From positions 1 to 64,000 of the forward strand of contig CAXHJY010001283.1 of NCBI GenBank assembly GCA_964016885.1: 64,000 nucleotides of DNA, written 5' to 3'. A program made the position numbers and the translations under genes. The notes beneath the pieces were generated by a model. It was not told the origin of the DNA. It did not search any database and saw only the letters and a program-made list of their open reading frames with translations. Within the stretch, counting starts at the first letter, position 1. Each line of letters begins with the position of its first letter. Below are positions 3,685-64,000 of the stretch, piece by piece. Origin of the DNA: Eledone cirrhosa (taxonomy: Eukaryota).

Positions 3685-4428
<744 letters not shown>

Positions 4429-4431
4429 TAA

Positions 4432-4503
<72 letters not shown>

Positions 4504-4516
4504 CATATATATATAC

Positions 4517-4793
<277 letters not shown>

Positions 4794-4794
4794 C

Positions 4795-4851
<57 letters not shown>

Positions 4852-4888
4852 CATATATATATACATATATATATATATACATATATAC

Positions 4889-4919
<31 letters not shown>

Positions 4920-4928
4920 CATATATAC

Positions 4929-5001
<73 letters not shown>

Positions 5002-5017
5002 TTATACATATATATAC

Positions 5018-5116
<99 letters not shown>

Positions 5117-5155
5117 CATACATATATACATATACATATATACATATATATATAC

Positions 5156-5186
<31 letters not shown>

Positions 5187-5209
5187 CATATATATATACA
5201 TATATATAC

Positions 5210-5240
<31 letters not shown>

Positions 5241-5341
5241 CATATATATACATATATATATATATACATATATATACATATATACATATATATACATATA
5301 TACATATATATACATATATATATATATACATATATATATAC

Positions 5342-5372
<31 letters not shown>

Positions 5373-5437
5373 CATATATATACATATATATACATATATA
5401 TATATACATATACATATATATACATATATATATATAC

Positions 5438-5484
<47 letters not shown>

Positions 5485-5683
5485 CATATATATATACATA
5501 TATATATATACATATATACACATATATACATATATATATACATATACATATATACATATATACACATATATACATATATATATATATATACATATATACA
5601 TATATATACATATATATATATATATACATATATATACATATATATATATATATACATATATATACATATATACATATATATAC

Positions 5684-5846
<163 letters not shown>

Positions 5847-5847
5847 C

Positions 5848-5907
<60 letters not shown>

Positions 5908-5908
5908 C

Positions 5909-5976
<68 letters not shown>

Positions 5977-6141
5977 TATAGTATTAGTTATACTATTTAT
6001 GGTTATGTAAACACAAAACCTTAAGCAGTTGTAAGTATTTTACACACACCCTAAATAGTGGTAGGCAGTAATGTATTACTACCTTATTACCAGTAAGTTA
6101 AGTAGCTCAATGTAAAAACATCAGATGATTTACAGAGCAGT

Positions 6142-6449
6142 TATATGAAATATAAGAATCAAAGAACTGTTCAAAACATTATTGTGCTTACAGCTGTTTC
6201 CTCCAAACCGAGGTTTGGATTCTTCGGAGCAATTTATTAATGTATGGACAGTTATATGACCTCCTTTTCACCAAGAGACATACCAATACATATTCAATAT
6301 GTATTGGTATGTCTCTCGGCTGAAAAGGAGGTCATATAACTGTCCATGCATTAATAAATTGCTCCGAAGAATCCAAACCTCGGTTTGGAGGAAGCAGCTG
6401 TAAGCACAATAATGTTTTGAACAGTTCTTTGATTCTTATATTTCATATA
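6142..6449. repeat. 308-bp near-perfect palindrome carrying two inverted hammerhead motifs
   Basis: Arms of about 153 bp around a single C at 6295, with one indel and few mismatches. Hammerhead motifs at 6185-6231 (-) and 6360-6406 (+). Confidence 0.95.
6185..6231 (-). ncRNA. Minimal hammerhead ribozyme motif, variant core CCGAAGA
   Basis: Minus strand reads TGCT-CCGAAGA-A-TCCAAAC-CTCG-GTTTGGA-G-GAAA-CAGCTG-TA-AGCA. Palindromic stem III as in Penelope minimal hammerheads. Confidence 0.7.
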
Positions 6450-6549
6450 TTTCATACATATACATATATATATACATATACATCTATACATCTATATATA
6501 TACATATACATCTATATATATACATATACATCTATATATATACATATAC

Positions 6550-6580
<31 letters not shown>

Positions 6581-6936
6581 CACACATATATATATACATA
6601 CATATACATATATACATATACATATATATACATATACATACATCTATATATATATATATACATCTACATACATATACATCTATATATATATATACATCTA
6701 TATATATATATACATATATATATATATACATCTATATATATATATATACATCTATATATATATATATACATCTATATATATATATATACATCTATATATA
6801 TATATATACATCTATATATATATATATATATATATACATCTATATATATATATATATATATATACATCTATATATATATATATATACATCTATATATATA
6901 TATATATACATCTATATATATATATATACATATATA

Positions 6937-8547
6937 GGTTCCCTGCTTGTGTCTTGAAGGCGTGTCAACACCAACTTGCTTCTCCTCTTGCCAATCTGTG
7001 GCGGAACTCACTGGATGCTGGATATGTGCCAGAAAACCTTCTATCCCAGTCTGTTGTCCCAGTTTTCAAAAAGGGAAACAAATCCCTTGCCGTGAATTAC
7101 CGTCCAATCTCACTCACCTCTCATATCATTAAGGTATTTGAGCGAGTGGTGAGATCGCGAATGACCCACTTCCTTGAGAGTAACAATATGCTGAACTCCA
7201 ACCAGCATGGATTCCGTAATGGAAGGGATTGCCTGACGCAACTACTGCATCACTTTGATGACATTTTGAGAGCCTTGGGAGAGGGTTCCAACACTGATGT
7301 TATCTACCTTGATTTCAGCAAGGCCTTTGACAGGGTTGATCATAACATTCTACTGAGAAAGCTGTCCAATATTGGTGTCACTGGAAAGCTGCTGCAGTGG
7401 ATCAAGAGCTTCCTGTCAAACAGAACCCAACATGTTGTAGTTGAGGGAGTCAAGTCAAGCCCAGCCAAGGTCAGTAGTGGAGTCCCACAAGGCACTGTGT
7501 TGGGCCCACTTCTCTTCATCATCTATATTAATGACATCACTGACATCATCAAACACAGCAACATTAAAATTTTCGCTGATGATTCCAAGCTCCAAAAGGT
7601 CATCAATGGCGTGGATGACCGGATTAAGCCTTCAGTCAGACCTACTGGCTGTTACCCAATGGGCAGAAAAGAACAACATGTTACTGAACGAAGACAAATT
7701 CGAACTGATCCACTTTGGAAAAGAGGATGCTCTGAAACTCCCGTACTCCCTTCCCTCCGGGGAAACTCTCGTGGCATCTAACAACATCAGAGACTTGGGA
7801 GTAACCGTGGACAGCAACATAAGCTGGACCACGCATATAAGCAGCAAAGTTGACATGGCCCGCAGAATGTGTTCCTGGATCCTCAGAACCTTCCAGTCGA
7901 GAGATTCCCGCACCATTATCCTTCTCTTCTCTACTTTCGCCCGACCACACCTTGAATACTGTTGTCCACTGTGGTCTCCCCACACGAAACAAAGTATCAT
8001 GAAACTTGAAGCTCCTCAAAGGGCAATCACGAAAAAGATAGATGGCATGTCAGACCTTGACTACTGGGGTCGATTGGAAAACCTGAAACTTTACTCACTC
8101 CAACGTCGCCGTGAGCGTTATATTATCTGCATGATGTGGAAAATGTTCCATCATCACTGCCCAAATGATGTTGGCATCGCCTTCAAGATACACCCAAGGC
8201 TTGGGCCCCGTGCTATCCGTCCCATTCAAAAATCTAAATCGCAACTCATAACAACAATACGGCACAATTATTTCACCTCAATCGGCCCTGCTCTCTTCAA
8301 CATCACACCAGGACACGTCAAAACAGAAACTGACCACACAAAATTCAAGAAGTCTTTGGACAAATTCCTCCAAGTAATCCCGGACAAACCACCCACACCC
8401 GGATATGTCTCCGCAAACAGTAATTCTCTTCTCGAATGGGCCATGGTGCCCAAATCCTGAATTGAAAGACTTCGCCAGGTGGTGCTATTAAGTTAGACAT
8501 GGCCTGGGCCAATACTGGCCAAAACATTTCAAAGTTATTCAAAGTTA
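6937..8547 (+). mobile_element. 5'-truncated CR1-clade LINE (RT and C-terminus) inserted in a (TA)n tract
   Basis: [37 protein letters not shown] and RPHLEYCCPLWSP motifs. One frameshift near 7625. Tandem ttcaaagtta tail. Confidence 0.93.
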
Positions 8548-16105: not shown

Positions 16106-17041
16106 GATGTTGCTATTCCACTCATGTTTTCTGTTTAATTTTGGTTGGAGTTCGTTTATATTTGTCACCTCTGTGATTTGCCTGAGCATTGCATCTTTTC
16201 TGTGTGTGGATATAATTTTTATCTCTGTTCTCTAATACATATATATATAGGTATGTATATATATGAATGGCGATTTGAGACTTAATTTTTCTAATAACCA
16301 ATATTTCACTAACTTATTAATTTGTGTCTGAGATACATTGGCCGAGTGCTTATGGTGGGAATTTTCGTCTCCTGCCATCACATAAATTTATAAATTGGTA
16401 GCCAATCAGGGGACAGCATTGTGATGCGTAGAGATTCCAGTTGATAATCGCTTCACTGTGTTGGCCGCCACATACAGTCATAGCCGGCATGGACTGGAGT
16501 TGAATTCTGTCGATTGATTGGTTATTGATTAGGCGAAACCCGCTGCTGAAACCACATGCGCCGATTATGCATTGTTGCATAATATATGCAGACAGAGGGT
16601 GCTGTGCACTCTACTGCTGCATCAAGTGTGGCCGAAACTCGAGTTTGATAAAGATTGAAGATACCCCTTTACGTGTGTTGTATTGAAGCGAATAACTATG
16701 TGTCTACTCTGGGAGTGTATCCTACATTACCTATTGAGTACGCTGAGATTCAACTGGTCCTAGCAGTGATAACTATACTAGGTCTATCAACTTATTATAT
16801 ATATATACTACACACAGAGATAAGTGCATGCACAGTGTAGAGAGAGAGAGAGAGAGGGGGCGGGGCGGATGTGTTGTTTAAAAAATAAAAAAACCAGCAA
16901 AAACAAAACAAAACTAAAATAACAACAAACAAATTCTATCTGCCTTCTTCCTTCTCCTACACCCCCGTACACATTGCATATGTAAGGAGGTGCAACATCT
17001 GCAAACGCACAAGTGCAGTCATGCAGGTTATGTAAACTTAC

Positions 17042-17136
17042 CCCACAAATGGTGTGCTGTATACAGGTGTCCGATGGACGAGAAGAAGCCTGCAACGGCT
17101 TCATTGTTGGTGCGTCGATGTTGGATGCCTCGAGCC
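17042..17136 (-). CDS. NIPSNAP: NipSnap exon (approx. exon 8): [31 protein letters not shown]
   Basis: 95 nt, tgttag|...|gtaagt. Matches [31 protein letters not shown]. Confidence 0.96.
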
Positions 17137-17706
17137 CTAACAGGAGAATTACAGGAAGAGGTATGTGGGAAAGGTGGGTTTTTTTTTTTTTATTAATTAA
17201 ATTAAATAAAAAAAAACAAAAAAACATGTTATAAAATTTCTTTGCAGGCGCAACAACAATAAGAAAAAAATATATATAAAATGTGGGTAATATTAAATAT
17301 TATCCAATTACATGTATGAGAATAACTCAATGTAAAATAACAAGTATGCTACAGAGCTGAGATACTTTATAAACAACAGTGTTTTAGAACATTTAATTAC
17401 TTACGATCAGTTCATCAAAGCACAGTTATCCCAGTTTCCTGAGTTACCTTCTCCTAGAAGAATGCTTGGACAAAGGCTGGGGTCCTTCACTCCTAGGGGT
17501 TTAACCACGCGATCGGGTATCCAGGCCAATTTTTTCTATGTCCCCACGCATATATACACACATGATTGACTTCTTACTAGTTAGGCAAATACTAAGGCAT
17601 ACTCCGGGGAAGAATGTACCCCCCAACATAGGTTAGTCGTTAGTGACATCTCAATAACCAAGAGACAGAATGAGACACACAGGAAGGTCTGGAAGCTAAA
17701 GGACCT

Positions 17707-18520
17707 TTCATCATCATTTTACGTCCGCTTTTCCCTGCTTGCAAGGGTGGGACGGGTCTTATTCAGCACAGCATCTCTCCACTTGTCACGGTCCTTCGTC
17801 ATCTCCACAGTGAGCTTCAATGATCTGATGTCTGTTCTCCCCACCTCCGCCCATGTTTTTCGTGGTCTACCTCTACCACGTCTTCCTTCAACTGGCATTT
17901 CCTGGCACTTCTTCACCCATCGGTCACCCTCCATGTGCATCACATGTCCATACCACCTCAGTCTCCTCTCCCGTACACTACATTCTATCCCTCTCTGACA
18001 CAGTTTCTCTCTCAACACATTCATGCTGGGTCGTTCACGCACATTGACATTGCACATCCAACGGAGCATGCTTGCCTCATTCCTCTTCAGCCGTCGCATA
18101 TCCTCTGCGGTTGCTGCCCATGTCTCACTACCATGCAGCATCGCGCTACTCACACAGGCATCATACAACCAGCCTTTCGTACGCAGAGAGAAACCCTTCT
18201 TCGTCAAGAGAGGAAGCAGCTCCCTAAACTTTTTCCAACCCGTCCTTATTCTAGATACTATGGCCTCGGAACACCCTCCTCCCATGCTAATCTGATCTCC
18301 TAGGTACCGGAAGCTATCCACCACTTCTATAGCACCCACCTGCATTTGAAAAATGTGTCTATCAATGCGACTTCTGTCTAATTTCCCTGTACATCTACTG
18401 CATACGTATTTCTCCCTGCCTGTTAGTTTGCCTGCTATCCCACTACATCTCTTGTGTACCCAGGATCTGCATTGTGTGCATTTTATAGAATTTATGCCAG
18501 TTCCTTTTCTGCATATCGAA
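17707..18520 (-). mobile_element. RTE family B 3' fragment
   Basis: ORF 17719-18582: CSICRKG...MLHGSETW...GRPRKTW. Closely related to 40980-41775. Confidence 0.92.
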
Positions 18521-18737
18521 CATGCTGTGCAAGTGGAGAGATTACTGATTACATTAGACAGTGTAACACAATCTCTCTTCAATTTCTGTGCATATTGTCA
18601 ATTACAATTTTATTTGATGTATCATATCTACATGTATATATATTTGCATATAATATCAATATACACATTACACATGCTAGCAGAAAACCACTTGAAGCGT
18701 GGTTTTTCTGCTAGTAAAAACAATATCGATTACTTAC

Positions 18738-19812: not shown

Positions 19813-19979
19813 ATGAGGTTGGCATTAGGAAGGGCATCCAGCTGTATGAGCAAGAAGTAGTCACCTGACCTAACATTGCCCACAACAGGACAACTCATCT
19901 AACCCATGCTAGAGTGGAAACATGAACATTAAACGGTGATGATGATCTCAGCTATGACAATATGGAAACCTTATATATC

Positions 19980-22900
19980 ACTCTGTAAAGTGGTAGTGTT
20001 GGTGTCATGATATAATACACCCAGTACACTCTGTAAAGTGGTAGTGTTGGTGTCATGATAGAATACACCCAGTACACTCTGTAAAGTGGTAGTGTTGGTG
20101 TCATGATAGAATACACCCAGTACACTCTGTAAAGTGGTAGTGTTGGTGTCATGATAGAATACACCCAGTACACTCTGTAAAGTGGTAGTGTTGGTGTCAT
20201 GATAAAATACACCCAGTACACTCTGTAAAATGTTAGTGTTGGTGTCATGATATAATACACCCAGTACACTCTGTAAAGTGTTAGTGTTGGTGTCATGATA
20301 TAATACACCCAGTACACTCTGTAAAATGTTAGTGTTGGTGTCATGATATAATACACCCAGTACACTCTGTAAAATGTTAGTGTTGGTGTCATGATATAAT
20401 ACATCCAGTACACTCTGTAAAGTGGTAGTGTTGGTGTCATGATATAATACACCCAGTACACTCTGTAAAGTGGTAGTGTTGGTGTCATGATAGAATACAC
20501 CCAGTACACTCTGTAAAGTGGTGGTGTTGGTGTCATGATAGAATACACCCAGTACACTCTGTAAAGTGGTAGTGTTGGTGTCATGATAGAATACACCCAG
20601 TACACTCTGTAAAGTGTTAGTGTTGGTGTCATGATATAATACACCCAGTACACTCTGTAAAGTGGTAGTGTTGGTGTCATGATAGAATACACCCAGTACA
20701 CTCTGTAAAGTGGTGGTGTTGGTGTCATGATATAATACACCCAGTACACTCTGTAATGTGGTAGTGTTGGTGTCATGATATAATACACCCAGTACACTCT
20801 GTAAAGTGTTAGTGTTGGTGTCATGATATAATACACCCAGTACACTCTGTAAAGTGGTAGTGTTGGTGTCATGATATAATACACCCAGTACACTCTGTAA
20901 AGTGGTAGTGTTGGTGTCATGATAGAATACACCCAGTACACTCTGTAAAGTGTTAGTGTTGGTGTCATGATATAATACACCCAGTACACTCTGTAAAGTG
21001 TTAGTGTTGGTGTCATGATATAATACACCCAGTACACTCTGTAAAGTGGTAGTGTTGGTGTCATGATATAATACACCCAGTACACTCTGTAAAGTGGTAG
21101 TGTTGGTGTCATGATAGAATACACCCAGTACACTCTGTAAAGTGTTAGTGTTGGTGTCATGATATAATACACCCAGTACACTCTGTAAAGTGTTAGTGTT
21201 GGTGTCATGATATAATACACCCAGTACACTCTGTAAAGTGTTAGTGTTGGTGTCATGATATAATACACCCAGTACACTCTGTAAAGTGGTAGTGTTGGTG
21301 TCATGATATAATACACCCAGTACACTCTGTAAAGTGGTAGTGTTGGTGTCATGATATAATACACCCAGTACACTCTGTAAAGTGTTAGTGTTGGTGTCAT
21401 GATAGAATACACCCAGTACACTCTGTAAAGTGTTAGTGTTGGTGTCATGATATAATACACCCAGTACACTCTGTAAAGTGTTAGTGTTGGTGTCATGATA
21501 TAATACACCCAGTACACTCTGTAAAGTGGTAGTGTTGGTGTCATGATATAATACACCCAGTACACTCTGTAAAGTGGTAGTGTTGGTGTCATGATAGAAT
21601 ACACCCAGTACACTCTGTAAAGTGTTAGTGTTGGTGTCATGATATAATACACCCAGTACACTCTGTAAAGTGGTAGTGTTGGTGTCATGATATAATACAC
21701 CCAGTACACTCTGTAAAGTGGTAGTGTTGGTGTCATGATAGAATACACCCAGTACACTCTGTAAAGTGGTGGTGTTGGTGTCATGATAGAATACACCCAG
21801 TACACTCTGTAATGTGGTAGTGTTGATGTCATGATATAATACACCCAGTACACTCTGTAAAGTGGTAGTGTTGGTGTCATGATAGAATACACCCAGTACA
21901 CTCTGTAAAGTGGTAGTGTTGGTGTCATGATAGAATACACCCAGTACACTCTGTAAAGTGGTAGTGTTGGTGTCATGATATAATACACCCAGTACACTCT
22001 GTAAAGTGGTAGTGTTGGTGTCATGATAGAATACACCCAGTACACTCTGTAATGTGGTAGTGTTGGTGTCATGATATAATACACCCAGTACACTCTGTAA
22101 AGTGGTAGTGTTGGTGTCATGATATAATACACCCAGTAAACTCTGTAAAGTGGTAGTGTTGGTGTCATGATAGAATACACCCAGTACACTCTGTAATGTG
22201 GTGGTGTTGGTGTCATGATAAAATACACCCAGTACACTCTGTAAAGTGATAGTGTTGGTGTCATGATAAAATACACCCAGTACACTCTGTAATGTGGTGG
22301 TGTTGGTGTCATGATAAAATACACCCAGTACACTCTGTAAAGTGATAGTGTTGGTGTCATGATATAATACACCCAGTACACTCTGTAAAGTGGTAGAGTT
22401 GGTGTCATGATATAATACACCCAGTACACTCTGTAAAGTGGTAGTGTTGGTGTCATGATATAATACACCCAGTACACTCTGTAAAGTGGTAGTGTTGGTG
22501 TCATGATATAATACACCCAGTACACTCTGTAAAGTGGTAGTGTTGGTGTCATGATAGAATACACCCAGTACACTCTGTAAAGTGGTAGAGTTGGTGTCAT
22601 GATATAATACACCCAGTACACTCTGTAAAGTGGTAGTGTTGGTGTCATGATATAATACACCCAGTACACTCTGTAAAGTGGTAGTGTTGGTGTCATGATA
22701 GAATACACCCAGTACACTCTGTAAAATGGTAGTGTTGGTGTCATGATATAATACACCCAGTACACTCTGTAAAGTGGTAGTGTTGGTGTCATGATATAAT
22801 ACACCCAGTACACTCTGTAAAGTGGTAGTGTTGGTGTCATGATAGAATACACCCAGTACACTCTGTAAAGTGGTAGTGTTGGTGTCATGATAGAATACAC

Positions 22901-25900
22901 CCAGTACACTCTGTAAAGTGGTAGTGTTGATGTCATGATATAATACACCCAGTACACTCTGTAAAGTGGTAGTGTTGGTGTCATGATAGAATACACCCAG
23001 TACACTCTGTAAAGTGGTAGTGCTGGTGTCCTGATATAATACACCCAGTACACTCTGTAATGTGGTAGTGTTGGTGTCATGATAAAATACACCCAGTACA
23101 CTCTGTAAAGTGGTAGTGTTGGTGTCATGATAGAATACACCCAGTACACTCTGTAAAGTGGTAGTGTTGGTGTCATGATATAATACACGCAGTACACTCT
23201 GTAAAGTGGTAGTGTTGGTGTCATGATAGAATACACCCAGTACACTCTGTAAAGTGGTAGTGTTGATGTCATGATATAATACACCCAGTACACTCTGTAA
23301 AGTGGTAGTGTTGGTGTCATGATAGAATACACCCAGTACACTCTGTAACGTGGTAGTGTTGGTGTCATGATATAATACACCCAGTACACTCTGTAAAGTG
23401 GTAGTGTTGATGTCATGATAGAATACACCCAGTACACTCTGTAAAGTGGTAGTGTTGGTGCCATGATATAATACACCCAGTACACTCTGTAAAGTGGTGG
23501 TGTTGGTGTCATGATAGAATACACCCAGTACACTCTGTAAAGTGGTAGTGTTGGTGTCATGATAGAATACACCCAGTACACTCTGTAAAGTGGTGGTGTT
23601 GGTGTCATGATAGAATACACCCAGTACACTCTGTAAAGTGGTAGTGTTGGTGTCATGATAAAATACACCCAGTACACTCTGTAAAGTGGTAGTGTTGGTG
23701 TCATGATAGAATACACCCAGTACACTCTGTAAAGTGGTAGTGTTGATGTCATGATAGAATACACCCAGTACACTCTGTAAAGTGGTAGAGTTGGTGTCAT
23801 GATAGAATACACTCAGTACACTCTGTAAAGTGGTAGTGTTGGTGTCATGATATAATACACCCAGTACACTCTGTAAAGTGGTAGTGTTGGTGTCATGATA
23901 GAATACACCCAGTACACTCTGTAAAGTGGTAGTGTTGATGTCATGATAGAATACACCCAGTACACTCTGTAAAGTGGTAGAGTTGGTGTCATGATATAAT
24001 ACACCCAGTACACTCTGTAAAGTGGTAGTGTTGGTGTCATGATATAATACACCCAGTACACTCTGTAAAGTGGTAGTGTTGGTGTCATGATATAATACAC
24101 CCAGTACACTCTGTAAAGTGGTAGTGTTGGTGTCATGATAGAATACACCCAGTACACTCTGTAAAGTGGTAGAGTTGGTGTCATGATATAATACACCCAG
24201 TACACTCTGTAAAGTGGTAGTGTTGGTGTCATGATATAATACACCCAGTACACTCTGTAAAGTGGTAGTGTTGGTGTCATGATAGAATACACCCAGTACA
24301 CTCTGTAAAATGGTAGTGTTGGTGTCATGATATAATACACCCAGTACACTCTGTAAAGTGGTAGTGTTGGTGTCATGATATAATACACCCAGTACACTCT
24401 GTAAAGTGGTAGTGTTGGTGTCATGATAGAATACACCCAGTACACTCTGTAAAGTGGTAGTGTTGGTGTCATGATAGAATACACCCAGTACACTCTGTAA
24501 AGTGGTAGTGTTGATGTCATGATATAATACACCCAGTACACTCTGTAAAGTGGTAGTGTTGGTGTCATGATAGAATACACCCAGTACACTCTGTAAAGTG
24601 GTAGTGCTGGTGTCCTGATATAATACACCCAGTACACTCTGTAATGTGGTAGTGTTGGTGTCATGATAAAATACACCCAGTACACTCTGTAAAGTGGTAG
24701 TGTTGGTGTCATGATAGAATACACCCAGTACACTCTGTAAAGTGGTAGTGTTGGTGTCATGATATAATACACGCAGTACACTCTGTAAAGTGGTAGTGTT
24801 GGTGTCATGATAGAATACACCCAGTACACTCTGTAAAGTGGTAGTGTTGATGTCATGATATAATACACCCAGTACACTCTGTAAAGTGGTAGTGTTGGTG
24901 TCATGATAGAATACACCCAGTACACTCTGTAACGTGGTAGTGTTGGTGTCATGATATAATACACCCAGTACACTCTGTAAAGTGGTAGTGTTGATGTCAT
25001 GATAGAATACACCCAGTACACTCTGTAAAGTGGTAGTGTTGGTGCCATGATATAATACACCAAGTACACTCTGTAAAGTGGTGGTGTTGGTGTCATGATA
25101 GAATACACCCAGTACACTCTGTAAAGTGGTAGTGTTGGTGTCATGATAGAATACACCCAGTACACTCTGTAAAGTGGTGGTGTTGGTGTCATGATAGAAT
25201 ACACCCAGTACACTCTGTAAAGTGGTAGTGTTGGTGTCATGATAAAATACACCCAGTACACTCTGTAAAGTGGTAGTGTTGGTGTCATGATAGAATACAC
25301 CCAGTACACTCTGTAAAGTGGTAGTGTTGGTGTCATGATAGAATACACCCAGTACACTCTGTAAAGTGGTAGTGTTGGTGTCATGATAGAATACACCCAG
25401 TACACTCTGTAAAGTGGTAGTGTTGGTGTCATGATATAATACACCCAGTACACTCTGTAAAGTGGTAGTGTTGGTGTCATGATAAAATACACCCAGTACA
25501 CTCTGTAAAGTGGTAGTGTTGGTGTCATGATATAATACACCCAGTACACTCTGTAAAGTGGTAGTGTTGGTGTCATGATAGAATACACCCAGTACACTCT
25601 GTAAAGTGGTGGTGTTGGTGTCATGATATAATACACCCTGTACACTCTGTAAAGTGGTAGTGTTGGTGTCCTGATATAATACACCCAGTACACTCTGAAG
25701 TGGTGGTGTTGGTGTCATGATAGAATACACCCAGTACACTCTGTAAAGTGGTAGAGTTGGTGTCATGATAGAATACACCCAGTACACTCTGTAAAGTGGT
25801 GGTGTTGGTGTCATGATATAATACACCCAGTACACTCTGTAAAGTGGTAGAGTTGGTGTCATGATATAATACACCCAGTACACTCTGTAAAGTGGTAGTG

Positions 25901-28670
25901 TTGGTGTCATGATATAATACACCAAGTACACTCTGTAAAGTGGTAGTTTTGGTGTCATGATAAAATATACCCAGTACACTCTGTAAAGTGGTAGAGTTGG
26001 TGTCATGATATAATACACCCAGTACACTCTGTAAAGTGGTAGAGTTGGTGTCATTATATTACACACCCAGTACACTCTGTAAAGTGGTAGTATTGGTGTC
26101 AAGATAGAATACACCCAGTACACTCTGTAAAGTGGTAGAGTTGGTGTCATGATATAATACACCCAGTACACTCTGTAAAGTGGTAGAGTTGGTGTCATTA
26201 TATTACACACCCAGTACACTCTGTAAAGGGGTAGTGTTGGTGTCATGATAAAATACACCTAGTACACTCTGTAAAGTGGTAGTGTTGGTGTCATGATAGA
26301 ATACACCCTGTACACTCTGTAAAGTGGTAGTGTTGGTGTCATGATAGAATACACCCAGTACACTCTGTAAAGTGGTAGTGTTGGTGTCATGATATAATAC
26401 ACCCAGTTCACTCTGTAAAGTGGTAGTGTTAGTGTCATGATAAAATACACCCAGTACACTCTGTAAAGTGGTAGTGTTGGTGTCATGATAGAATACACCC
26501 AGTACACTCTGTAAAGTGGTAGTGTTGGTGTCATGATATAATACACCCAGTACACTCTGTAAAGTGGTAGTGTTGGTGTCATGATGGAATACACCCAGTA
26601 CACTCTGTAAAGTGGTGGTGTTGGTGTCATGATATAATACACCCTGTACACTCTGTAAAGTGGTAGTGTTGGTGTCCTGATATAATACACCCAGTACACT
26701 CTGTGAAGTGGTGGTGTTGGTGTCATGATAGAATACACCCAGTACACTCTGTAAAGTGGTAGAGTTGGTGTCATGATATAATACACCCAGTACACTCTGT
26801 AAAGTGGTGGTGTTGGTGTCATGATATAATACACCCAGTACACTCTGTAAAGTGGTAGAGTTGGTGTCATGATATAATACACCCAGTACACTCTGTAAAG
26901 TGGTAGTGTTGGTGTCATGATATAATACACCAATTACACTCTGTAAAGTGGTAGTGTTGGTGTCATGATAAAATATACCCAGTACACTCTGTAAAGTGGT
27001 AGAGTTGGTGTCATTATATTACACACCCAGTACACTCTGTAAAGTGGTAGTATTGGTGTCATGATAGAATACACCCAGTACACTCTGTAAAGTGGTAGAG
27101 TTGGTGTCATGATATAATACACCCAGTACACTCTGTAAAGTGGTAGAGTTGGTGTCATTATATTACACACCCACTACACTCTGTAAAGGGGTAGTGTTGG
27201 TGTCATGATAAAATACACCTAGTACACTCTGTAAAGTGGTAGTGTTGGTGTCATGATAGAATACACCCTGTACACTCTGTAAAGTGGTAGTGTTGGTATC
27301 ATGATATAATACACCCAGTACACTCTGTAAAGTGGTAGTGTTGGTGTCATGATAAAATACATCCAGTACACTCTGTAAAGTGGTAGTGTTGGTGTCATGA
27401 TAGAATACACCCAGTACACTCTGTAAAGTGGTAGTGTTGGTGTCATGATATAATACACCCAGTTCACTCTGTAAAGTGGTAGTGTTAGTGTCATGATAAA
27501 ATACACCCAGTACACTCTGTAAAGTGGTAGTGTTGGTGTCATGATAGAATACATCCAGTACACTCTGTAAAGTGGTAGTGTTGGTGTCATGATAGAATAC
27601 ATCCAGTACACTCTGTAAAGTGGTAGTGTTGGTGTCATGATATAATACACCCAGTACACTCTGTAAAGTGGTGGTGTTGGTGTCATGATATAATACACCC
27701 TGTACACTCTGTAAAGTGGTAGTGTTGGTGTCATGATAGAATACATCCAGTACACTCTGTAAAGTGGTAGTGTTGGTGTCATGATATAATACACCCAGTA
27801 CACTCTGTAAAGTGGTGGTGTTGGTGTCATGATATAATACACCCAGTAAACTCTGTAAAGTGGTAGTGTTGGTGTCATGATAGAATACATCCAGTACACT
27901 CTGTAAAGTGGTAGTGTTGGTGTCATGATAGAATACATCCAGTACACTCTGTAAAGTGGTGGTGTTGGTGTCATGATATAATACACCCAGTAAACTCTAA
28001 AGTGGTAGTGTTGGTGTCATGATAGAATACATCCAGTACACTCTGTAAAGTGGTAGTGTTGGTGTCATGATAGAATACATCCAGTACACTCTGTAAAGTG
28101 GTGGTGTTGGTGTCATGATAAAATACATCCAGTACACTCTGTAAAGTGGTAGTGTTGGTGTCATGATAGAATACACCCAGTACACTCTGTAAAGTGGTAG
28201 TGTTGGTGTCATGATAGAATACATCCAGTACACTCTGTAAAGTGGTGGTGTTGGTGTCATGATAAAATACATCCAGTACACTCTGTAAAGTGGTAGTGTT
28301 GGTGTCATGATAGAATACACCCAGTACACTCTGTAAAGTGGTAGTGTTGGTGTCATGATAGAATACATCCAGTACACTCTGTAAAGTGGTGGTGTTGGTG
28401 TCATGATAAAATACATCCAGTACACTCTGTAAAGTGGTAGTGTTGGTGTCATGATAGAATACACCCAGTACACTCTGTAAAGTGGTAGTGTTGGTGTCAT
28501 GATAGAATACATCCAGTACACTCTGTAAAGTGGTGGTGTTGGTGTCATGATAAAATACATCCAGTACACTCTGTAAGGTGGTAGTGTTGGTGTCATGATA
28601 GAATACATCCAGTACACTCTGTAAAGTGGTGGTGTTGGTGTCATGATAAAATACATCCAGTACACTGTAA
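19980..28670. repeat. About 8.7-kb satellite of 48-bp units (about 180 copies) with higher-order duplications
   Basis: Unit ctctgtaaagtggtagtgttggtgtcatgat(a/g)aatacacccagtaca; no spacers. Confidence 0.98.
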
Positions 28671-28899
28671 GGAATTAGTGCTGCAGCTTATGTAGGTTTA
28701 GTCGGTCTCCTACAAGGATGTATCTCATAGGAGGTCTTGGATGTTTTAATAATAGGGACCCCAGTCCTACCATGAAAAGCAATGTGAAATGAAGTGAATT
28801 GCTCAGAAATGCAATACACAATTCTGTCCACAAATCATGTAGGTGAATCGGGGGTGTAGATATGATGTGAAATTTAACAGAAGACTGAGAGGATGTGGG

Positions 28900-30458
28900 C
28901 AGGGCCGTCTTAACGCATGGGCACGCTGGGTAGTTGCCCGGGGGCCCCACGAGGATAGGGGGCCCATGCTAATCTATGTATGTAGCGACCACCTCTCTAA
29001 AGTGTTTTTTTTAAAAAGTTCTGGCAAAATGGTATTAAAATTAATATAATTTTTCTTTACAAAACTGGTCACTCCTTCAAACCGTACACCAGCCACTTTT
29101 TAAAATATTTGTTATAATAAATATATTAATTATAACCTCATAATACTGGCAACAACAACATTTTTTTTAATATAAAAATTCCCTACATAATAAAAAAATT
29201 TTAATTAGAATATTTAGTTTCTGTGGCAATTGAGCATCATGATACCATTACAGTTTTTTGTTTGGTAAGATTTGAATGGCGACCCTCAGGGAATATTTGG
29301 TTTAACCCTTTAGTGTTCAAACCGCCCGAAAACACCCACACTAAACATTTATTCTAAAAATAAACAAACCATCATCAAAATCTCGTCAATTCGAGACTGC
29401 TGCAAGATTAGGCCTTTACCGTGAAAATTAACACTTAATATAGTGAAACAACTTAAAACAACAAGTGTTTTTTTAACTTTGAAAGTGCAAGTAGCGATAC
29501 CGACTTTGAAGGTTTTATACATGGCGACATTCAGAATAAACAAGAAACAAATGATAATATTAGTGATTTATCATCAAATGAATCAGATGTTTATATTTCT
29601 GAAATTTCGTCCGACGATGATTGTTTTGAAAGTGAAAATGAAGGAGATCTCCAGGACGCCATTGAAAATATTACAGCAATGTGGTTGAAAAATACCACAC
29701 CAATATATGTTCCTGATTTTATTTAAATTACTGGTCCACAACACACATTACCTCCCGATGCTAAAGCACTGGATTATTTCTTTTTGTTTTTACCACAAAC
29801 TTTCTTCTAAGTTGTGGCAGAAGAGATTAATCGATATGCCCAACAACAGATTTCAAATCAGGTAAAACCCGATCTGTTATGGCGACCAACAGATGTTGCA
29901 GAAATGCAAGCATTTTTTACCGTAAATAATATGTTCGGTATAAAACAATTTCCAAGACTGTGGAGGAGAAAGTTCATTTTCAAGACTGAGACTTATAAAA
30001 AATCAGCTTCACAGCAGTGTTTGAACTGGCTTTCACTCATGTGTATGGAAAATGAAATCCTGAAAACCATTGACTTCAAGCCAATTATAAAGCAATTCTC
30101 TTCAAAGAAATTTCGCAAATATTTGTATTGACCACCTGATTATTAATAAATAGTTCATCGTAATTTGATACTGCGCGATCTCTGTCTGTATGTTTTATGA
30201 ATTGAATATCATTTGTGCTGAAATTTTTGTGTTTTTCAAGGCTCATGTTATATTGTTCAAACGTTTGTGTTAATTAATCTTTGATGTACCACATGTTTTT
30301 AATGTATAAACACTGATTTCGTTGGAAATACCAATACAATGAATATATCTTTAATTATATTGATCATTTGTATTTTTATTCCTGTGAGTGGTTGTGTAGG
30401 TAGGGGCCTCAGTGCTCTGCTTTGTCCGGGGGCCTATAATGCTGTTAAGATGGCCTTG
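28900..30458 (+). mobile_element. Non-autonomous hAT transposon with 8-bp TSD, carrying a piggyBac left-end fragment
   Basis: TIRs cagggccgtcttaac and gttaagatggccttg. TSD GATGTGGG at 28892-28899 and 30459-30466. hAT dimerisation-domain remnant (LNWLSLMCMENEILKTIDF) near 29965-30130. Confidence 0.9.
29306..29960 (+). mobile_element. piggyBac left end with degenerate transposase N-terminus (PGBD4-like)
   Basis: TTAA|CCCTTTAG end. Translation LDYFFLFLP...VAEEINRYAQQ...WRPTDVAEMQAFF...FGIKQFP. Confidence 0.85.
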
Positions 30459-30488
30459 GATGTGGGGTATATCTCTGGTCTGACTTAC

Positions 30489-30632
30489 CTTCAAAACATA
30501 ACTTCGCAACTCATAGATGTGACTGCGACTGGCTGATGGTGTTTCACGTGGCCAAAAACTAAAACGCAATAGAATCTGGTTACGTCGAGAACGTAACATC
30601 TTGTTACGTTTTGATCGGAACTCCAAGAAGTC
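30489..30632 (-). CDS. NIPSNAP: NipSnap exon (approx. exon 6): [48 protein letters not shown]
   Basis: 144 nt, phase 0/0, ttgcag|...|gtaagt. Matches [27 protein letters not shown]...IYELRSY. Confidence 0.96.
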
Positions 30633-31005
30633 CTGCAATAAAAAAATAAGAGATGTGATATAGCATGTGAGTAAATGAGTGAGAGAGAGAGAGAGAGAGT
30701 ATAGAGTAAGTGTGTGTGAGAGACAAAGACACATACACACAAATATATATTCGTAAGTATGGAAAAACGGATGTAAAAACGATGATGATCACACACACAC
30801 ATATGTATATGAGTGCTACTGATAACATGTAACCCAGTACAACCTGTTGCATGGGAGGGTCTCGGCGACTAAACCGGCAACCCCACCAAGTTTACTTGGT
30901 GAGGAGGGTGATTCTGGACACCCTGCAGGACAAAAAATAAAACCTGACAAAGGGTGGAAGAACTCATAAGAGTCAATGGCCATCCAAAAATGTGTAAAGA
31001 TGTAT

Positions 31006-39400: not shown

Positions 39401-41775
39401 GATTGACTTCTTGCTAATTAGGCAAATACTAAGGCATACCCTGGGGAAGAATGTACCGCCCAACACAGGTTAGTTGTTAGTGACATCTCAGTAAGCAAGA
39501 GATGGAATGAGACATACAGGAAGGTGTGGAAAAAAAAAGTCTGGAAGCTAAAAGACCTTTCACTTAAATATAAATTTAGGAAAGCCCTTCAAGATGTGTA
39601 TGACGAAAAAGAAGACGATTTAGAATTGTATGACATAGATGATAACTGGAATTTCTTACGTGACAACTTACTGCAGGCTACTGATGAAACTTGTGGCTGG
39701 AGCAGAGCTCCAATCAGACAGAGAGTGAACTGGTGGTGGAACAGCACAGTAGATAAGGCCATTAGAGACAAAAGACTAGCATGGAAGGCTTGGAAAAAGG
39801 GTGGGAGTAGGGAAGGATATACAGCCGCTAAGAGAGAAGCTAGACGTCAGGTGTACTTAGCACACAGGGAGGCGGAGAGTAGGGGGTTTGCCAATGTTCT
39901 GCGACGGGAAAATCAGAGGCGTGCGGTGTTCCACATTGCAAGGCAGTGTGTCAATGCAAATCAGGATATTGTGGGAGATAAATGTGTCCAGGATGATGCC
40001 GGTGTACTTAGTGTCACGAATGATCAGAAAAAGGAGGCCTGGAAATGTCATTATGAGAGACTGGTGAATGTGGAGAACGAATGGGAGAGAGAGAAATTAC
40101 CCTTAATAGATCCGACAGAGGGACCAGCTATTGAGATTGACGAATATAGGGTCCAAGAGGTGATTAGGGAAATGAAAAATGGTAAGGTTGCTGGACCATC
40201 GGGGATAGTTGCTGAGATGCTGAAGGCATCAGGGGACGTAGGCACTAAACTGGTTGCACGCATCATCAATCAGGCTATATATGGTGGTGTCATACCCAAA
40301 GACTGGTGCAGCAGTATTCTCATAAATTGCTACAAAGGTAAAGGGAATGCTCTGGAGAGGAGCAATTATAGGGGTATAAAACTGATAGATCAGGTTATGA
40401 AAGTGGCAGAAAGGATATTAGCACAACTAATTAGAGAAAGGGTCAAACTAGATGAGATGCAGTTTGGTTTTGTGCCTGGGAAGAGTACAACAGATGCCCT
40501 CTTCTTGGTGAGACAATTACAAGAGAGGTTCTTAGGGAAAAATAAGCCACTATACTTAGCCTTTGTTGACCTAGAGAAGGCCTTTGACAGGGTACTCCGA
40601 TCTGTCATCTGGTGGTCCCTAAGGAAACTAAGTGTTGAAGAATGGCTTGTGAGGACAGTGCAAACTTTGTACAGAGGTACTGTCAGTAAAGTCAGGGTAA
40701 GAATGGAGTTTAGTGAGGAATTCCAGATTCAAGTAGGAGTACATCAAGGTTCGGTCCTCAGCCCACTCTTATTCATTATAGTCCTCCAAGCCATAACAGA
40801 GGAGTTTAAGACTGGCTGTCCATGGGAACTTCTCTATGCTGACGATCTGGTTCTTATAGCAGAATCAGTAGAGGAGCTAGAGAATAAATTCTAGCTATGG
40901 AAACAGCAGTTGGAAGCAAGAGGACTGAGAGTGAACGAAGCTAAGACAAAAATGTTGATGAGTAGAAAAGAGGAAATGGCTATGTTCGATATGCAGAAAA
41001 GGAACTGGCATAAATTCTATAAAATGCACACAATGCAGATACTGGGTACACAAGAGATGTAGTGGGCTAGCAGGCAAACTAACAGGTAGGGAGAAATACG
41101 TATGCAGTAGATGTACAGGCAAATTAAACAGAAGTCTCATTGATAGACAAATTTTTCAAATGCAGGCAGGTGCTATAGAAGTGGTGGATAGCTTCCGGTA
41201 CCTAGGAGATCAGATTAGCATGGGAGGAGGGTGTTCCGAGGCCATAGTATCTAGAATAAGGATGGGTTGGAAGAAGTTTAGGGAGCTGCTTCCTCTGTTG
41301 ACGAAGAAGGGTTTCTCCCCGCGTACGAAAGGCCGGTTATAAGATGCCTGTGTGAGGAGCGCGATGCTGCATGGTAGTGAGACATGGGCAGCAACTGCAG
41401 AGGATATGCGACGGCTGGAGAGAAATGAGGCAAGCATGCTCCGTTGGATGTGCAGTGTAAATGTGTGTGAACGACCCAGCATGAATGTGTTGAGAGAGAA
41501 ACTGTGTCTGAGAGGGATAGAATGTAGTGTATGGGAGAGGAGACTGAGGTGGTATGGACATGTGATGCGCATGGAGGATGACCGATCGGTGAAGAAGTGC
41601 CAGGAAATGCCAGTTGAAGGAAGACATGGTAAGAGGTAGACCACGAAAAACATCATATCGTTGAAGCACACGGTGGAGATGACGAAGGACCGTGAAAAGT
41701 GGAGAGATACTGTGCTGAATAAGACCCGTCCCACCCTTGCAAGCAGGGAAAAGCAGACGTTAAATGATGATGATG
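39401..41775 (+). mobile_element. RTE family B LINE, about 2.4 kb, with 456-aa open RT frame
   Basis: End of APE (IDFLL...EECTAQHRLV), NYRGIKL, QFGFVPGKSTTDA, GVHQGSVLSP, LYADDL; stops at 40892 and 41340; (GAT)n tail. Confidence 0.95.
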
Positions 41776-47452: not shown

Positions 47453-47535
47453 CTTCTACAGGACTAGAACTGTTTCATTCGGAAGAAATCATCAGGAAAG
47501 TAGAGGGCTTTCCTGATGATTTCTTCCGAATGAAA
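47453..47535. ncRNA. Inverted pair of hammerhead cores in a 28-bp-arm palindrome
   Basis: Arms 47473-47500 and 47508-47535. Minus strand reads TTTC-CTGATGA-TTTC-TTCC-GAAT-GAAACAG-TTCTAGTC-CTGTA-GAAG. The plus copy is truncated after GAAA. Confidence 0.65.
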
Positions 47536-49140: not shown

Positions 49141-49409
49141 GTCTATTAATGTACGTATGTGTCTATTAATGTATGTATGTATATGTCTATTAATGTATGT
49201 ATGTGTCTTAATGTATGTATGTGTCTATTAATGTATGTATATGTCTATTAATGTGTGTATGTCTATTAATGTATGTATGTCTATTAATGTATGTATGTAT
49301 ATTAATGTATGTAAGTGTCAATTAATGTATGTATGTGTCTTAATGTATGTATGTGTCTATTAATGTATGTGTGACTATTAATGTACGTGTGTGTCTATTA
49401 ATGTACGTA

Positions 49410-50622
49410 TTCCAAACCTGGAAGCAGGGACTAGAGAGAAAGGGCCTCAAAGTCAACATGACAAAGACTAAGGTCCTTATAAGTAGACGAGAAAACAGAA
49501 CCCAGATCCCCTCAGGGAAATGGCCTTGCTCAGTATGTAGGAAAGGTGTAGGTAGGAACTCCATTCTTTGCCCCAAATGCAAACAATGGGTACACAAGAG
49601 ATGTAGCGGGATCTCAGGAAGCTTAATTAAGAATGTAGGATTCACATGCAGCAGCTGTGCTGAAACAGCAAGCAAACAGCCACAGGAAACAAGTACCACC
49701 AATCTCTGGGAGGGCCCTGTAGAAACAGTAGACAGCTTCTGCTACCTAGGTGACCGAATTAGCAACGGAGGTGGGTGCTCAGAAAGTACAATAACTAGGG
49801 TAAGAACGGGATGGAAGAAGTTTAGGGAACTACTACCACTGCTAGCTGCAAAAGGCTTCTCCCTCAGAATGAAAGGCAGACTGTATGATGCGTGTATCCG
49901 AACAGCGATGTTGCATGGTAGTGAGACCTGGGCGCTGAAGGTGGAAGACTTACGTAGATTAGAGAGAAACGAAGCCTGCATGCTCCGATGGATGTGTAAC
50001 AGTAATATACGTGAACGACAAAGCATAAATGAATTGAGAGAGAGACTGAGCATAAGAGGAATCAAATGCTGCGTGCAGGAGAGGCGGTTACGCTGGTATG
50101 GACATGTGATGCGTATGAAGGATGACAGCTGCATAAAAAGGTGCAGAGCACTAGAAGTTGATGGAAACCGCGGAGTGGGGAGACCCAAGATGACTTGGGA
50201 TGAGGTGATAAAAGCCGACCTTACCCAACTACACCTCTCAAAGTCAATGACACACGACCGTGACTTCTGGCGTCACGCAGTAATACAGGGTACCCGACCT
50301 CCCATGGGTACATGCTGAAGCATATAAACAATATGCCCCCCCCCCCCCCACCGCAAGGTGGTCGTGGAGGTGCCACGGCAAAAAAGCACCCAGCCCACAC
50401 TGTAAAGTGGACGTGTAGGCGCCACGAAAAAGCACCCAGCACTCACTGTAAATGAGGTTGGTGTTAGGAAGGGCATCCAGCTGTAGAAATCAAGCCAGAT
50501 CAGTTCCTGTATGAGCAAGGCATGGTCAGCCGACCAGACACTGCCCACAACAGGACAACCCGTCTAACCCATGCTAGCGTGGAAGAACGGACGTAAAACG
50601 GTGATGATGATGATGATGATGA
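49410..50622 (+). mobile_element. Young 5'-truncated RTE family A LINE
   Basis: Uninterrupted frame FQTWKQGLE...PPMGTC* (to 50318), then 3' UTR and (GAT)n. Confidence 0.95.
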
Positions 50623-63588: not shown

Positions 63589-63641
63589 TATATATATATA
63601 TAAATTACAGAATAATCAAAACTATGTTCAAAACCTTTTAT

Positions 63642-63688
63642 TGCTGACAATCGTTTCTTCCAAACTTTCATTTGGAATCATCGGAGCA
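63642..63688 (-). ncRNA. Minimal hammerhead ribozyme motif, variant core CCGATGA
   Basis: Minus strand reads TGCT-CCGATGA-TTCCAAA-TGAAAG-TTTGGAA-GAAAC-GATT-GTC-AGCA. The flank resembles 6155-6185. Confidence 0.72.
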
Positions 63689-64000
63689 CTAGTAAAGTTT
63701 AGACATATAATTAACCTCCTATTCCACAGAACAATTGTAAAGATACATAGATGTTAGTGTTGTTATTAACAGTGTCATATTTAGAGAGTGAAGATGATAT
63801 CAGTATAAGTGGATGCAACAAAGATTATAAAAGAATAATACAACAATTATAGAGGAATTAAAGAAGAAAGTTACTCACAAAACGAGGACATTAGCAGTAC
63901 ATATACAAGCGTATAGAAAGTGCAGATGTGTTAGGCATGTACAGAATAACCAGGTAAGAAACAAGCAATGGTACTCGGCATATATATCTCACAGTATGGC

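What the first reader, a model, noticed from the sequence alone, without database searches (positions are those of the whole stretch)
6142..6449. 308-bp palindrome that places two hammerhead motifs back to back
Seen: near-perfect arms with a 1-nt centre, each ending in a hammerhead motif that points outward and has a palindromic CAGCUG stem III; the plus-strand copy has GAAG instead of GAAA. No coding sequence is present. Known: Penelope insertions often form inverted terminal-repeat junctions, and minimal hammerheads can cleave as dimers. Inference: either a Penelope insertion by-product or a tiny non-autonomous ribozyme-bounded hairpin element. Any transcript would fold into about 150 bp of dsRNA (ADAR or Dicer substrate). 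The minus-strand copy is sense to the NipSnap pre-mRNA.
Basis: partly seen in the sequence, partly recalled or inferred. Interest (0 to 1): 0.72.

Follow-up and report, generated by a model that had tools for sequence, protein, structure and literature searches.

The report
Head-to-head ends of Penelope jumping gene
This 308-base mirror sequence is two truncated ends of a young, abundant Penelope-type jumping gene joined head to head, a known insertion layout rather than a separate ribozyme element; its many sister copies show fixed end points and short stuttered repeats that likely record how the gene's enzyme starts copying.

Summary
The palindrome is real: arms 6142-6294 and 6296-6449, 1-nt centre, 4 differences. 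It is the minimal inverted insertion of a young Hydra-clade Penelope-like element (4.2-kb unit, 832-aa RT/GIY-YIG ORF; 2,165 hammerhead-pattern matches genome-wide). Centres vary freely (25 neighbouring inverted pairs, 135-6,247 bp apart), and no other inspected copy has this centre, so the mini-element idea fails. The motifs are variant hammerheads (U4C core; plus copy also A15.1G) on opposite strands, buried in a -253 kcal/mol duplex, so they cannot pair in cis. The layout is published, and this scan found it before on other DNA, including this genome. Not found in my paper searches: 41 of 41 typed inverted insertions have exactly one tailed end; both end points abut the same 9-nt motif; free ends carry template-matched repeats (up to 71 nt of TC) that internal junctions lack. 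Likely mechanism: both cut DNA strands prime cDNA on one RNA at two signal-defined sites, with reiterative copying at the start.

The parts
5978..6141 (-). 164-nt tail: element sequence between end point A and end point B; in full copies it is the stretch between pLTR and ORF
   Evidence: 100% identical to L020:4669-4832 over 164 nt; in L020 the ORF begins 4 nt after it
6142..6294 (-). left arm: 5'-truncated 3' end (pLTR) of the element, continuing into the tail (B-type end)
   Evidence: 97% to the reference 3' end; 3 non-majority alleles
6185..6231 (-). type I hammerhead-like motif with U4C core, unpaired bases flanking stem II and palindromic stem III; predicted cut after 6189
   Evidence: structure compatible in 18 copies (93% of cells paired) but covariation not above shuffles
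6293..6297 (.). inversion junction: near-palindromic 5-mer centred on C6295; both arms reach the same template position
   Evidence: both arms align back to unit position 3879, overlapping at 6293-6297
6296..6449 (+). right arm: 5'-truncated 3' end of the element, stopping at end point A (no tail)
   Evidence: 98% to the reference 3' end
6360..6406 (+). second hammerhead-like motif, with an added rare A15.1G change at 6394; likely impaired
   Evidence: allele seen in 2 arms among the 174 aligned; 15.1/16.1 mutants are at least 10-fold slower (PMC3088659 passage)
6450..6456 (+). 7-nt repeat of the element's own last bases (stutter) between end point A and the microsatellite
   Evidence: same feature at 12 of 48 free A ends and 0 of 44 internal junctions
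4431..5977 (.). left part of the (TA)n-type microsatellite target
6457..6936 (.). right part of the (TA)n-type microsatellite target
17031..17189 (-). context: ORF holding the most downstream NipSnap exon found; the insertion likely lies in the following intron
   Evidence: Pfam NIPSNAP E 4e-4, profile positions 21-54 of 102

Best explanation
The palindrome, with its one-sided 164-nt tail, is one small inverted insertion of a young Penelope-like retroelement in a (TA)n tract, likely built when both cut target strands primed reverse transcription on the element's RNA and the two short cDNAs were joined end to end. Shown: the parent element, the two fixed end points A and B, the one-tail rule, variable centres, short overlaps at junctions, a 9-nt motif directly behind both end points, and repeats confined to free ends. 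Inferred: an RT-endonuclease dimer nicks both strands; one primer starts at site A and the other at site B, each positioned by the motif; both usually copy the same RNA; the RT often slips and recopies the first 2-9 template bases; here both cDNAs stopped at one template position and annealed through a 5-nt near-palindrome with a central C-C mismatch, which gives the 1-nt centre. The hammerheads are passengers of the pLTR and are predicted to be inactive in this duplex.
For: Parent: full copies carry arm + tail + 832-aa ORF + 3' UTR + arm; 9 of 13 loci checked hold an ORF of at least 829 aa. Abundance: 2,165 pattern matches against 1 in the reversed control, plus 4,907 in older subfamilies. 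The first 100 matches on C1 give 25 divergent pairs 135-6,247 bp apart, 8 tandem spacings of 4,172-4,201 bp and 0 convergent pairs. Of 67 clusters, 46 are inverted: 41 have one A and one B end, none has A+A or B+B, and 5 have an untyped end (two ends were set by hand). All 13 inverted pairs of older subfamilies have the tail at one outer end (read from the BLAST table). Junction overlap is 1-15 nt in 32 of 41; both arms stop within 12 nt of each other in 6 of 41, against 0.75 expected, with 0 of 20,000 permutations as high. Arms are closer to each other than to the median other copy in 45 of 55 pairs and share 139 non-majority alleles, 23 of them rare. The 9-mer TAACTGCTC occurs twice in the 4.2-kb unit, exactly at A and B; it is present at A in 14 of 14 aligned copies, and at B in the 4 that read past B. 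Literature: inverted 5'-truncated copy plus one-sided tail (PMC8557442, PMC3846280); two internal RT start sites, cutting of both strands and a predicted dimer (PMC11167929); hammerheads 100-700 bp apart on opposite strands (PMC4209133).
Against: The window's own arms are among the 9 of 55 pairs that are not closer than the median other copy (4 differences against 3.0), so this locus does not itself show a shared template. Shared alleles could also come from one source locus or from later gene conversion. No empty target site was seen, so no target duplication or nick position is known. BLAST overlaps overstate microhomology. The sample required an intact hammerhead pattern in one arm. 21 of 67 clusters show one orientation only, although several have a few inverted terminal bases by eye. 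No read or contig listed from 4 public runs spans this junction, so it rests on the assembly.
Confidence: 0.85

Rival explanations
1. Fold-back (self-priming): one cDNA, or an antisense RNA, snaps back and copies itself to give the second arm, as proposed for rotifer Penelope elements.
For: Symmetric centres are enriched (6 of 41 against 0.75), the window is of this class, and the two arms usually share alleles. PMC3846280 proposes self-priming (passage).
Against: A fold-back copy cannot reach further upstream than its template, yet either the A arm or the B arm can be the longer one by kilobases. An A-started fold-back has no template for the tail. 35 of 41 junctions are asymmetric.
Confidence: 0.1
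2. A tiny non-autonomous hairpin element, bounded by ribozymes, that moves as a unit.
For: Five other loci match the whole 308 bp at 95-97%.
Against: Those five have centres that differ from the window's. No other inspected locus shares this centre. Sizes form a continuum up to full elements. The hammerheads sit inside the arms, 47 nt from end A.
Confidence: 0.02
3. Assembly or fold-back read artefact.
For: The contig is small (75,969 bp) and unplaced, the flanks are microsatellite, and no listed read spans the centre.
Against: A fold-back read would mirror the tail and the flank. Here the arms differ at 4 sites, and the ends follow the family's A+B rule and stutter.
Confidence: 0.02
4. For the end repeats only: they arise after insertion by DNA replication slippage at the element/microsatellite boundary, not by the RT.
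For: The flanks are unstable repeats; 9 stuttered junctions are followed by the tail; an earlier scan note (e1-9239765) favoured DNA slippage for a different stutter. Long TC runs may have grown later.
Against: The same seed is unexpanded at 44 of 44 internal junctions in the C1 sample and at 863 genome-wide, against 316 matches of the free-end stutter pattern (all 100 listed are stutters). The repeat unit follows each subfamily's own terminal template, and a 9-nt unit is a poor slippage seed. Internal junctions, however, lack the adjacent (TA)n, so this control is imperfect.
Confidence: 0.3

Closest known systems
Hydra clade of endonuclease-bearing Penelope-like elements (PMC8557442; section 11, passages and supplement part 2 read)
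   Same: C-terminal GIY-YIG endonuclease, RW(R/K), DKT, CxCX5C linker, CxxC and CxH around E and N, no CCHH cysteine pair, (TA)n targeting, hammerhead in the 3' region with extra bases flanking stem II. Penelope-13_HM is listed with a 5'-truncated inverted copy and hammerheads on both strands; an Octopus bimaculoides member is listed.
   Different: The unit is about 4.2 kb (listed members 1.1-3.0 kb), the tail is 164 nt (30-40 bp in the paper), and the core is CCGAAGA, whereas every hammerhead row on the supplement page read begins ctga.
Inverted pLTR plus tail insertions of Adineta vaga Pen2a and Drosophila virilis Penelope (PMC3846280, passages)
   Same: Inverted pLTR, tail at one end, palindromes at the junction, microhomology.
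   Different: Here no ORF lies between the arms and the microsatellite hides any target duplication; that paper invokes self-priming.
Anolis Poseidon PAc in vitro (PMC11167929; parts 1-2 of 4 read)
   Same: Two internal RT start sites delimiting the tail, both strands cut and extended, AT-rich target, uncut RNA used as template.
   Different: There the start site has no homology to the target and no strand preference was seen. Here both end points carry TA-rich bases that could pair with a (TA)n primer, abut a duplicated 9-mer, and occur strictly one per insertion.
Minimal PLE hammerheads (PMC4209133; parts 1-2 of 4 read)
   Same: Long stem II, short stem I, palindromic stem III, extra base after A9, pairs on opposite strands 100-700 bp apart.
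   Different: No G10.1-C11.1 pair; U4C core.
Non-LTR retrozymes (bioRxiv 10.64898/2026.07.22.740005, part 1 of 5 read)
   Same: Short non-coding, PLE-derived sequence with a type I hammerhead.
   Different: Retrozymes are head-to-tail tandem arrays with a hammerhead in every unit; this is a single head-to-head pair.
LINE-1 twin priming and 3' repeat slippage of LINEs (recalled; no call)
   Same: Two primers on one RNA give an inversion; slippage at initiation gives terminal repeats.
   Different: L1 inversions copy non-overlapping parts of the RNA; here both cDNAs copy the same 3' part.

Membership tests
EN+ Penelope-like element | single ORF with RT and C-terminal GIY-YIG endonuclease | tested here: met
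   832-aa stop-to-stop ORF in L020; RT motifs YRDD, DINSYY, FLD; Pfam GIY-YIG only weak, E 0.037 at 716-768, and no RVT_1 hit; 771 homologues at E<=1e-20
EN+ Penelope-like element | pLTR partial tandems, inverted 5'-truncated copy, tail at one end | tested here: met
EN+ Penelope-like element | hammerhead motif in the pLTR, sense to the ORF | tested here: met
Hydra clade | DKT instead of DKG; RWK-type motif; CxCX5C linker; CxxC and CxH; no CCHH | tested here: met
   ADKT 135, RWR 51, CxCX5C 691, CNLC 789, CQH 817, one cysteine only inside the GIY-YIG hairpin; among 120 homologues DK[TS] in 119, DKG in 0; criteria
Hydra clade | insertion into (TA)n | tested here: met
   first 20 flank bases over 70% TA/AT steps at 52 of 56 B ends and 38 of 51 A ends; most of the rest begin with the stutter
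Hydra clade | generally shorter than 3 kb | tested here: not met
   unit 4,172-4,201 bp; the paper states this as a tendency, not as a criterion
Hydra clade | phylogenetic grouping with reference Hydra RTs | not tested
   no tree with reference sequences was built
Canonical hammerhead ribozyme | core CUGANGA / GAAA with paired 10.1-11.1 | tested here: not met
   CCGAAGA; unpaired bases flank stem II; plus copy GAAG; no Rfam match
Canonical hammerhead ribozyme | covarying stems | tested here: inconclusive
   93.3% paired, 68 of 500 shuffles as high; stem III changes CAGCTG to CAATTG and stays palindromic, a single event
Canonical hammerhead ribozyme | self-cleavage | not testable with these tools
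   indirect only: 4 palindromes centred near the cut site, both arms stopping exactly there in 2
Non-LTR retrozyme | head-to-tail tandem units each with a hammerhead | tested here: not met
   single inverted pair
Unit-length non-autonomous element | dispersed copies with identical internal structure | tested here: not met
   centre not shared by any other inspected locus

The most novel reading that the evidence does not exclude
This Penelope RT uses a duplicated 9-nt RNA signal to set two internal template starts, one for each target strand, and then copies the first few template bases over and over, as its relative telomerase does. It thereby writes new microsatellite (TC runs up to 71 nt, 9-nt repeats, perhaps part of the TA tracts) at hundreds of chromosomal sites and builds new landing sites for its own family.
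Probability: 0.4. Interest if true: 0.7.

Novelty: new member of a known kind. Interest (0 to 1): 0.38.

Why it matters
The palindrome is an ordinary footprint and needs no new element class. Its family is useful: PMC8557442 names the origin of inverted repeats, tails and microsatellite bias as unsolved. Thousands of near-identical insertions here give sharp rules to test with one purified protein: one tail per insertion, a shared motif at both start sites, and template-matched repeats at free ends only. Repeat addition by a telomerase-related RT at internal sites would bear on telomerase origins and on why such genomes are so rich in microsatellites. The many arm pairs would also be a large predicted source of intronic dsRNA.

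Tried and rejected
Rfam: no hammerhead hit; only generic miRNA-hairpin matches far below gathering scores. NIPSNAP family search of the genome rang nowhere, controls included, so it is uninformative; a DNA search found no second copy of the exon at 30400-30700 beyond a flanking repeat. Sequencing runs: no RNA holder listed. Laying 4 of the 23 listed runs showed the element family but no listed piece across the centre. A-to-I signature: none. Pile-up of palindromes at the predicted cut site, a lead from e1-8622537: only 4 loci genome-wide; both arms stop exactly at the cut in 2 and one arm in a third. That is a weak hint of cleavage, against the many arms copied straight across the site. Two apparent A+A insertions from the stutter list turned out to be A+B, with a stutter before the tail (L137, L138). 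The idea that the tail motif TATTAA or TTCATA is reiterated deep into B-end flanks was not supported. The tail's consensus fold is weak (-16.4 kcal/mol, no covariation gain, 2 of 36 pairs with double changes); a 13-pair hairpin just behind site A is conserved but untested. The end tallies printed nothing because of regex errors and were redone. Paper searches that found no prior report of the one-tail rule, the duplicated motif or end stutter in PLEs; the library lacks most subscription papers (such as Arkhipova 2006), so this is not proof of novelty. The 9-mer has 0 hits in the PMC8557442 supplement. Supplements of PMC11167929, PMC4209133 and PMC3846280 were not read and may describe tail boundaries or core variants; bioRxiv supplements are closed.

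Full report
Observation. The palindrome is as described: arms 6142-6294 and 6296-6449 around C6295, with 3 substitutions and 1 indel, folding at -253.5 kcal/mol (z -43.7), inside a (TA)n-type tract. Each arm holds an outward-pointing hammerhead-like motif. Its core is CCGAAGA (U4C), with an unpaired base on each side of an 8-bp stem II and a CAGCTG stem III. The plus copy has G at 15.1. Rfam does not score it as a hammerhead.

What it belongs to. A search of the own genome gave 88 scored matches among the best 40 of 963 candidates: mostly half-length, plus five other full palindromes whose centres differ from the window's. Walking upstream gave the parent: a 4.2-kb unit with an 832-aa stop-to-stop ORF (L020:4836-7334) flanked by the arm sequence. 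[quoted passage not shown] It meets the sequence criteria of the Hydra clade read in PMC8557442 section 11: DKT, RWR, CxCX5C, CxxC/CxH, no CCHH. It has 771 homologues; the best named ones are from molluscs, 38% identical to an Argonauta hians protein, so a cephalopod host is likely (inference). No tree was built. The family is young and large: 2,165 hammerhead-pattern matches, 4,907 more in subfamilies about 70-80% alike in the arm, and 9 of 13 loci checked with an ORF of at least 829 aa. In the window the element runs from 5978 to 6456: tail, left arm, right arm, stutter.

Not a unit element. In the first 100 positional matches on C1, neighbouring motifs form 25 divergent pairs 135-6,247 bp apart, 8 tandem spacings of about 4.2 kb and no convergent pair. 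The window's centre 19-mer has 12 matches: the window, 10 sites unrelated to the element and one element palindrome with another centre. The layout is published: an inverted 5'-truncated copy with a tail at one end (PMC8557442, passages; PMC3846280, passages), hammerheads on opposite strands 100-700 bp apart (PMC4209133, parts 1-2), and a Hydra-clade example in the supplement. Earlier scan notes report the same layout in this and other genomes.

How it forms. All 67 clusters were fetched and mapped. Ends fall at two points: A, the end of the arm, and B, 164 nt further. Of 46 inverted insertions, 41 are A+B, none is A+A or B+B, and 5 have an untyped end; 21 clusters show one orientation (13 B, 8 A). 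The 13 inverted pairs of older subfamilies also carry one tail each. Either arm can be the longer, which argues against simple fold-back. Junctions overlap by 1-15 nt in 32 of 41, are blunt in 2 and gapped in 7 (two of the gaps are arm pieces that BLAST missed). Both arms stop within 12 nt of each other in 6 of 41, against 0.75 by permutation. Arms are more alike than the median other copy in 45 of 55 pairs (57 found, 2 dropped for under 120 shared bases; this set includes score-selected loci) and share 23 rare alleles; 9 pairs, including the window's, go the other way. With the in vitro result that a PLE protein cuts and extends both strands from two internal RNA sites (PMC11167929, parts 1-2), the likely route is twin priming on one RNP. 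For this locus both cDNAs would have stopped at one template position and annealed through the 5-mer at 6293-6297 with a C-C mismatch (inference).

Two features I did not find in print. First, TAACTGCTC occurs exactly twice in the unit, directly at A and at B. It is invariant at A in 14 of 14 aligned copies and present at B in the 4 that continue; the 19-locus count was selected on the motif and is not independent. Second, free ends often repeat the element's own last bases: 12 of 48 free A ends against 0 of 44 internal junctions, and 3 of 56 B ends by eye. Genome-wide there are 316 matches to the free-end pattern (all 100 listed are stutters), 9 stutters followed by the tail and 863 plain internal junctions. 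In subfamilies whose template ends in TCTCT, 570 ends carry a TC run. In the first 30 the run is 11-71 nt and lies between the element and (TA)n; the 11 free B ends found in those loci face (TA)n, not (GA)n. In unselected loci with that template, 6 of 8 non-internal ends have a TC run and 6 of 6 internal junctions do not. Reiterative copying by the RT is the simplest reading; later DNA slippage is not excluded. Similar slippage at LINE 3' ends is recalled, not checked. The searches that found no report are (listings only, apart from the papers named); PMC4993307 passages do not describe it.

The hammerheads. U4C lowers activity in vitro but was tolerated in a viroid, and changes at 15.1/16.1 cost at least 10-fold (PMC3088659, passages). 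Extra bases around stem II are common in Hydra-clade motifs, but all cores on the supplement page read begin ctga. The stems are compatible in 18 copies without significant covariation. A transcript of this locus carries one sense motif, sequestered in about 150 bp of duplex (about -10.6 kcal/mol for the motif region alone), so dimer cleavage in cis is excluded and any cleavage is unlikely. The sampled arms were copied across the cut site, so their templates were uncut there. Only 4 palindromes are centred near the cut, 2 of them exactly: a weak hint of some cleavage.

Host gene. NipSnap exons lie on the minus strand down to about 17.1 kb. The final exon or exons were not found in the window, which starts at the contig's first base, so the insertion is probably intronic. 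Expression, editing and small RNAs could not be tested.

Verdict. A real, ordinary Penelope footprint from a family not matched to a described one; interest 0.38, carried by the family-wide end rules rather than by this palindrome.

Noticed in passing
window 47473-47535: A 63-bp inverted repeat holds a second pair of hammerhead-like cores (CTGATGA ... GAAA) on opposite strands next to (TA)n; likely the stub of another Penelope family with its centre inside stem II.
   Followed up: no
window 63611-63724: A 70%-identical older copy of the same element end.
   Followed up: no
window 6937-8450: LINE-type reverse transcriptase fragment (Pfam RVT_1, E 4e-28) directly beyond the right microsatellite; another at 39422-40891.
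   Followed up: partly
window 19952-28687: A long minisatellite-like array that gives spurious ORFs up to 2,095 aa, apparently inside a NipSnap intron.
   Followed up: no
window 17722-18597 and 49344-50315: Two ORFs with a PHD finger, probably pieces of a LINE ORF1.
   Followed up: no
L137 (8411-8446) and L138 (1280-1295): The stutter lies inside the tailed arm, between site A and the tail, while the opposite free end also stutters; may mark a pause of the second RT at the first primer site.
   Followed up: partly
L188 and L189 centres: Both arms stop exactly at the predicted hammerhead cut and are joined by TA filler.
   Followed up: partly
flanks of L008, L009, L012, L013 and others: Other large inverted repeats next to (TA)n flank many loci, so several Penelope families seem to nest in each other's TA tracts.
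   Followed up: no
L020:4669-4900: The tail sits where other Penelope elements have a promoter and a 5' UTR intron; it holds GT-rich candidate donor sites and a conserved hairpin just behind site A.
   Followed up: no
L027:41-5995: A 6-kb perfect inverted array of a 466-bp tandem repeat next to an element copy.
   Followed up: no
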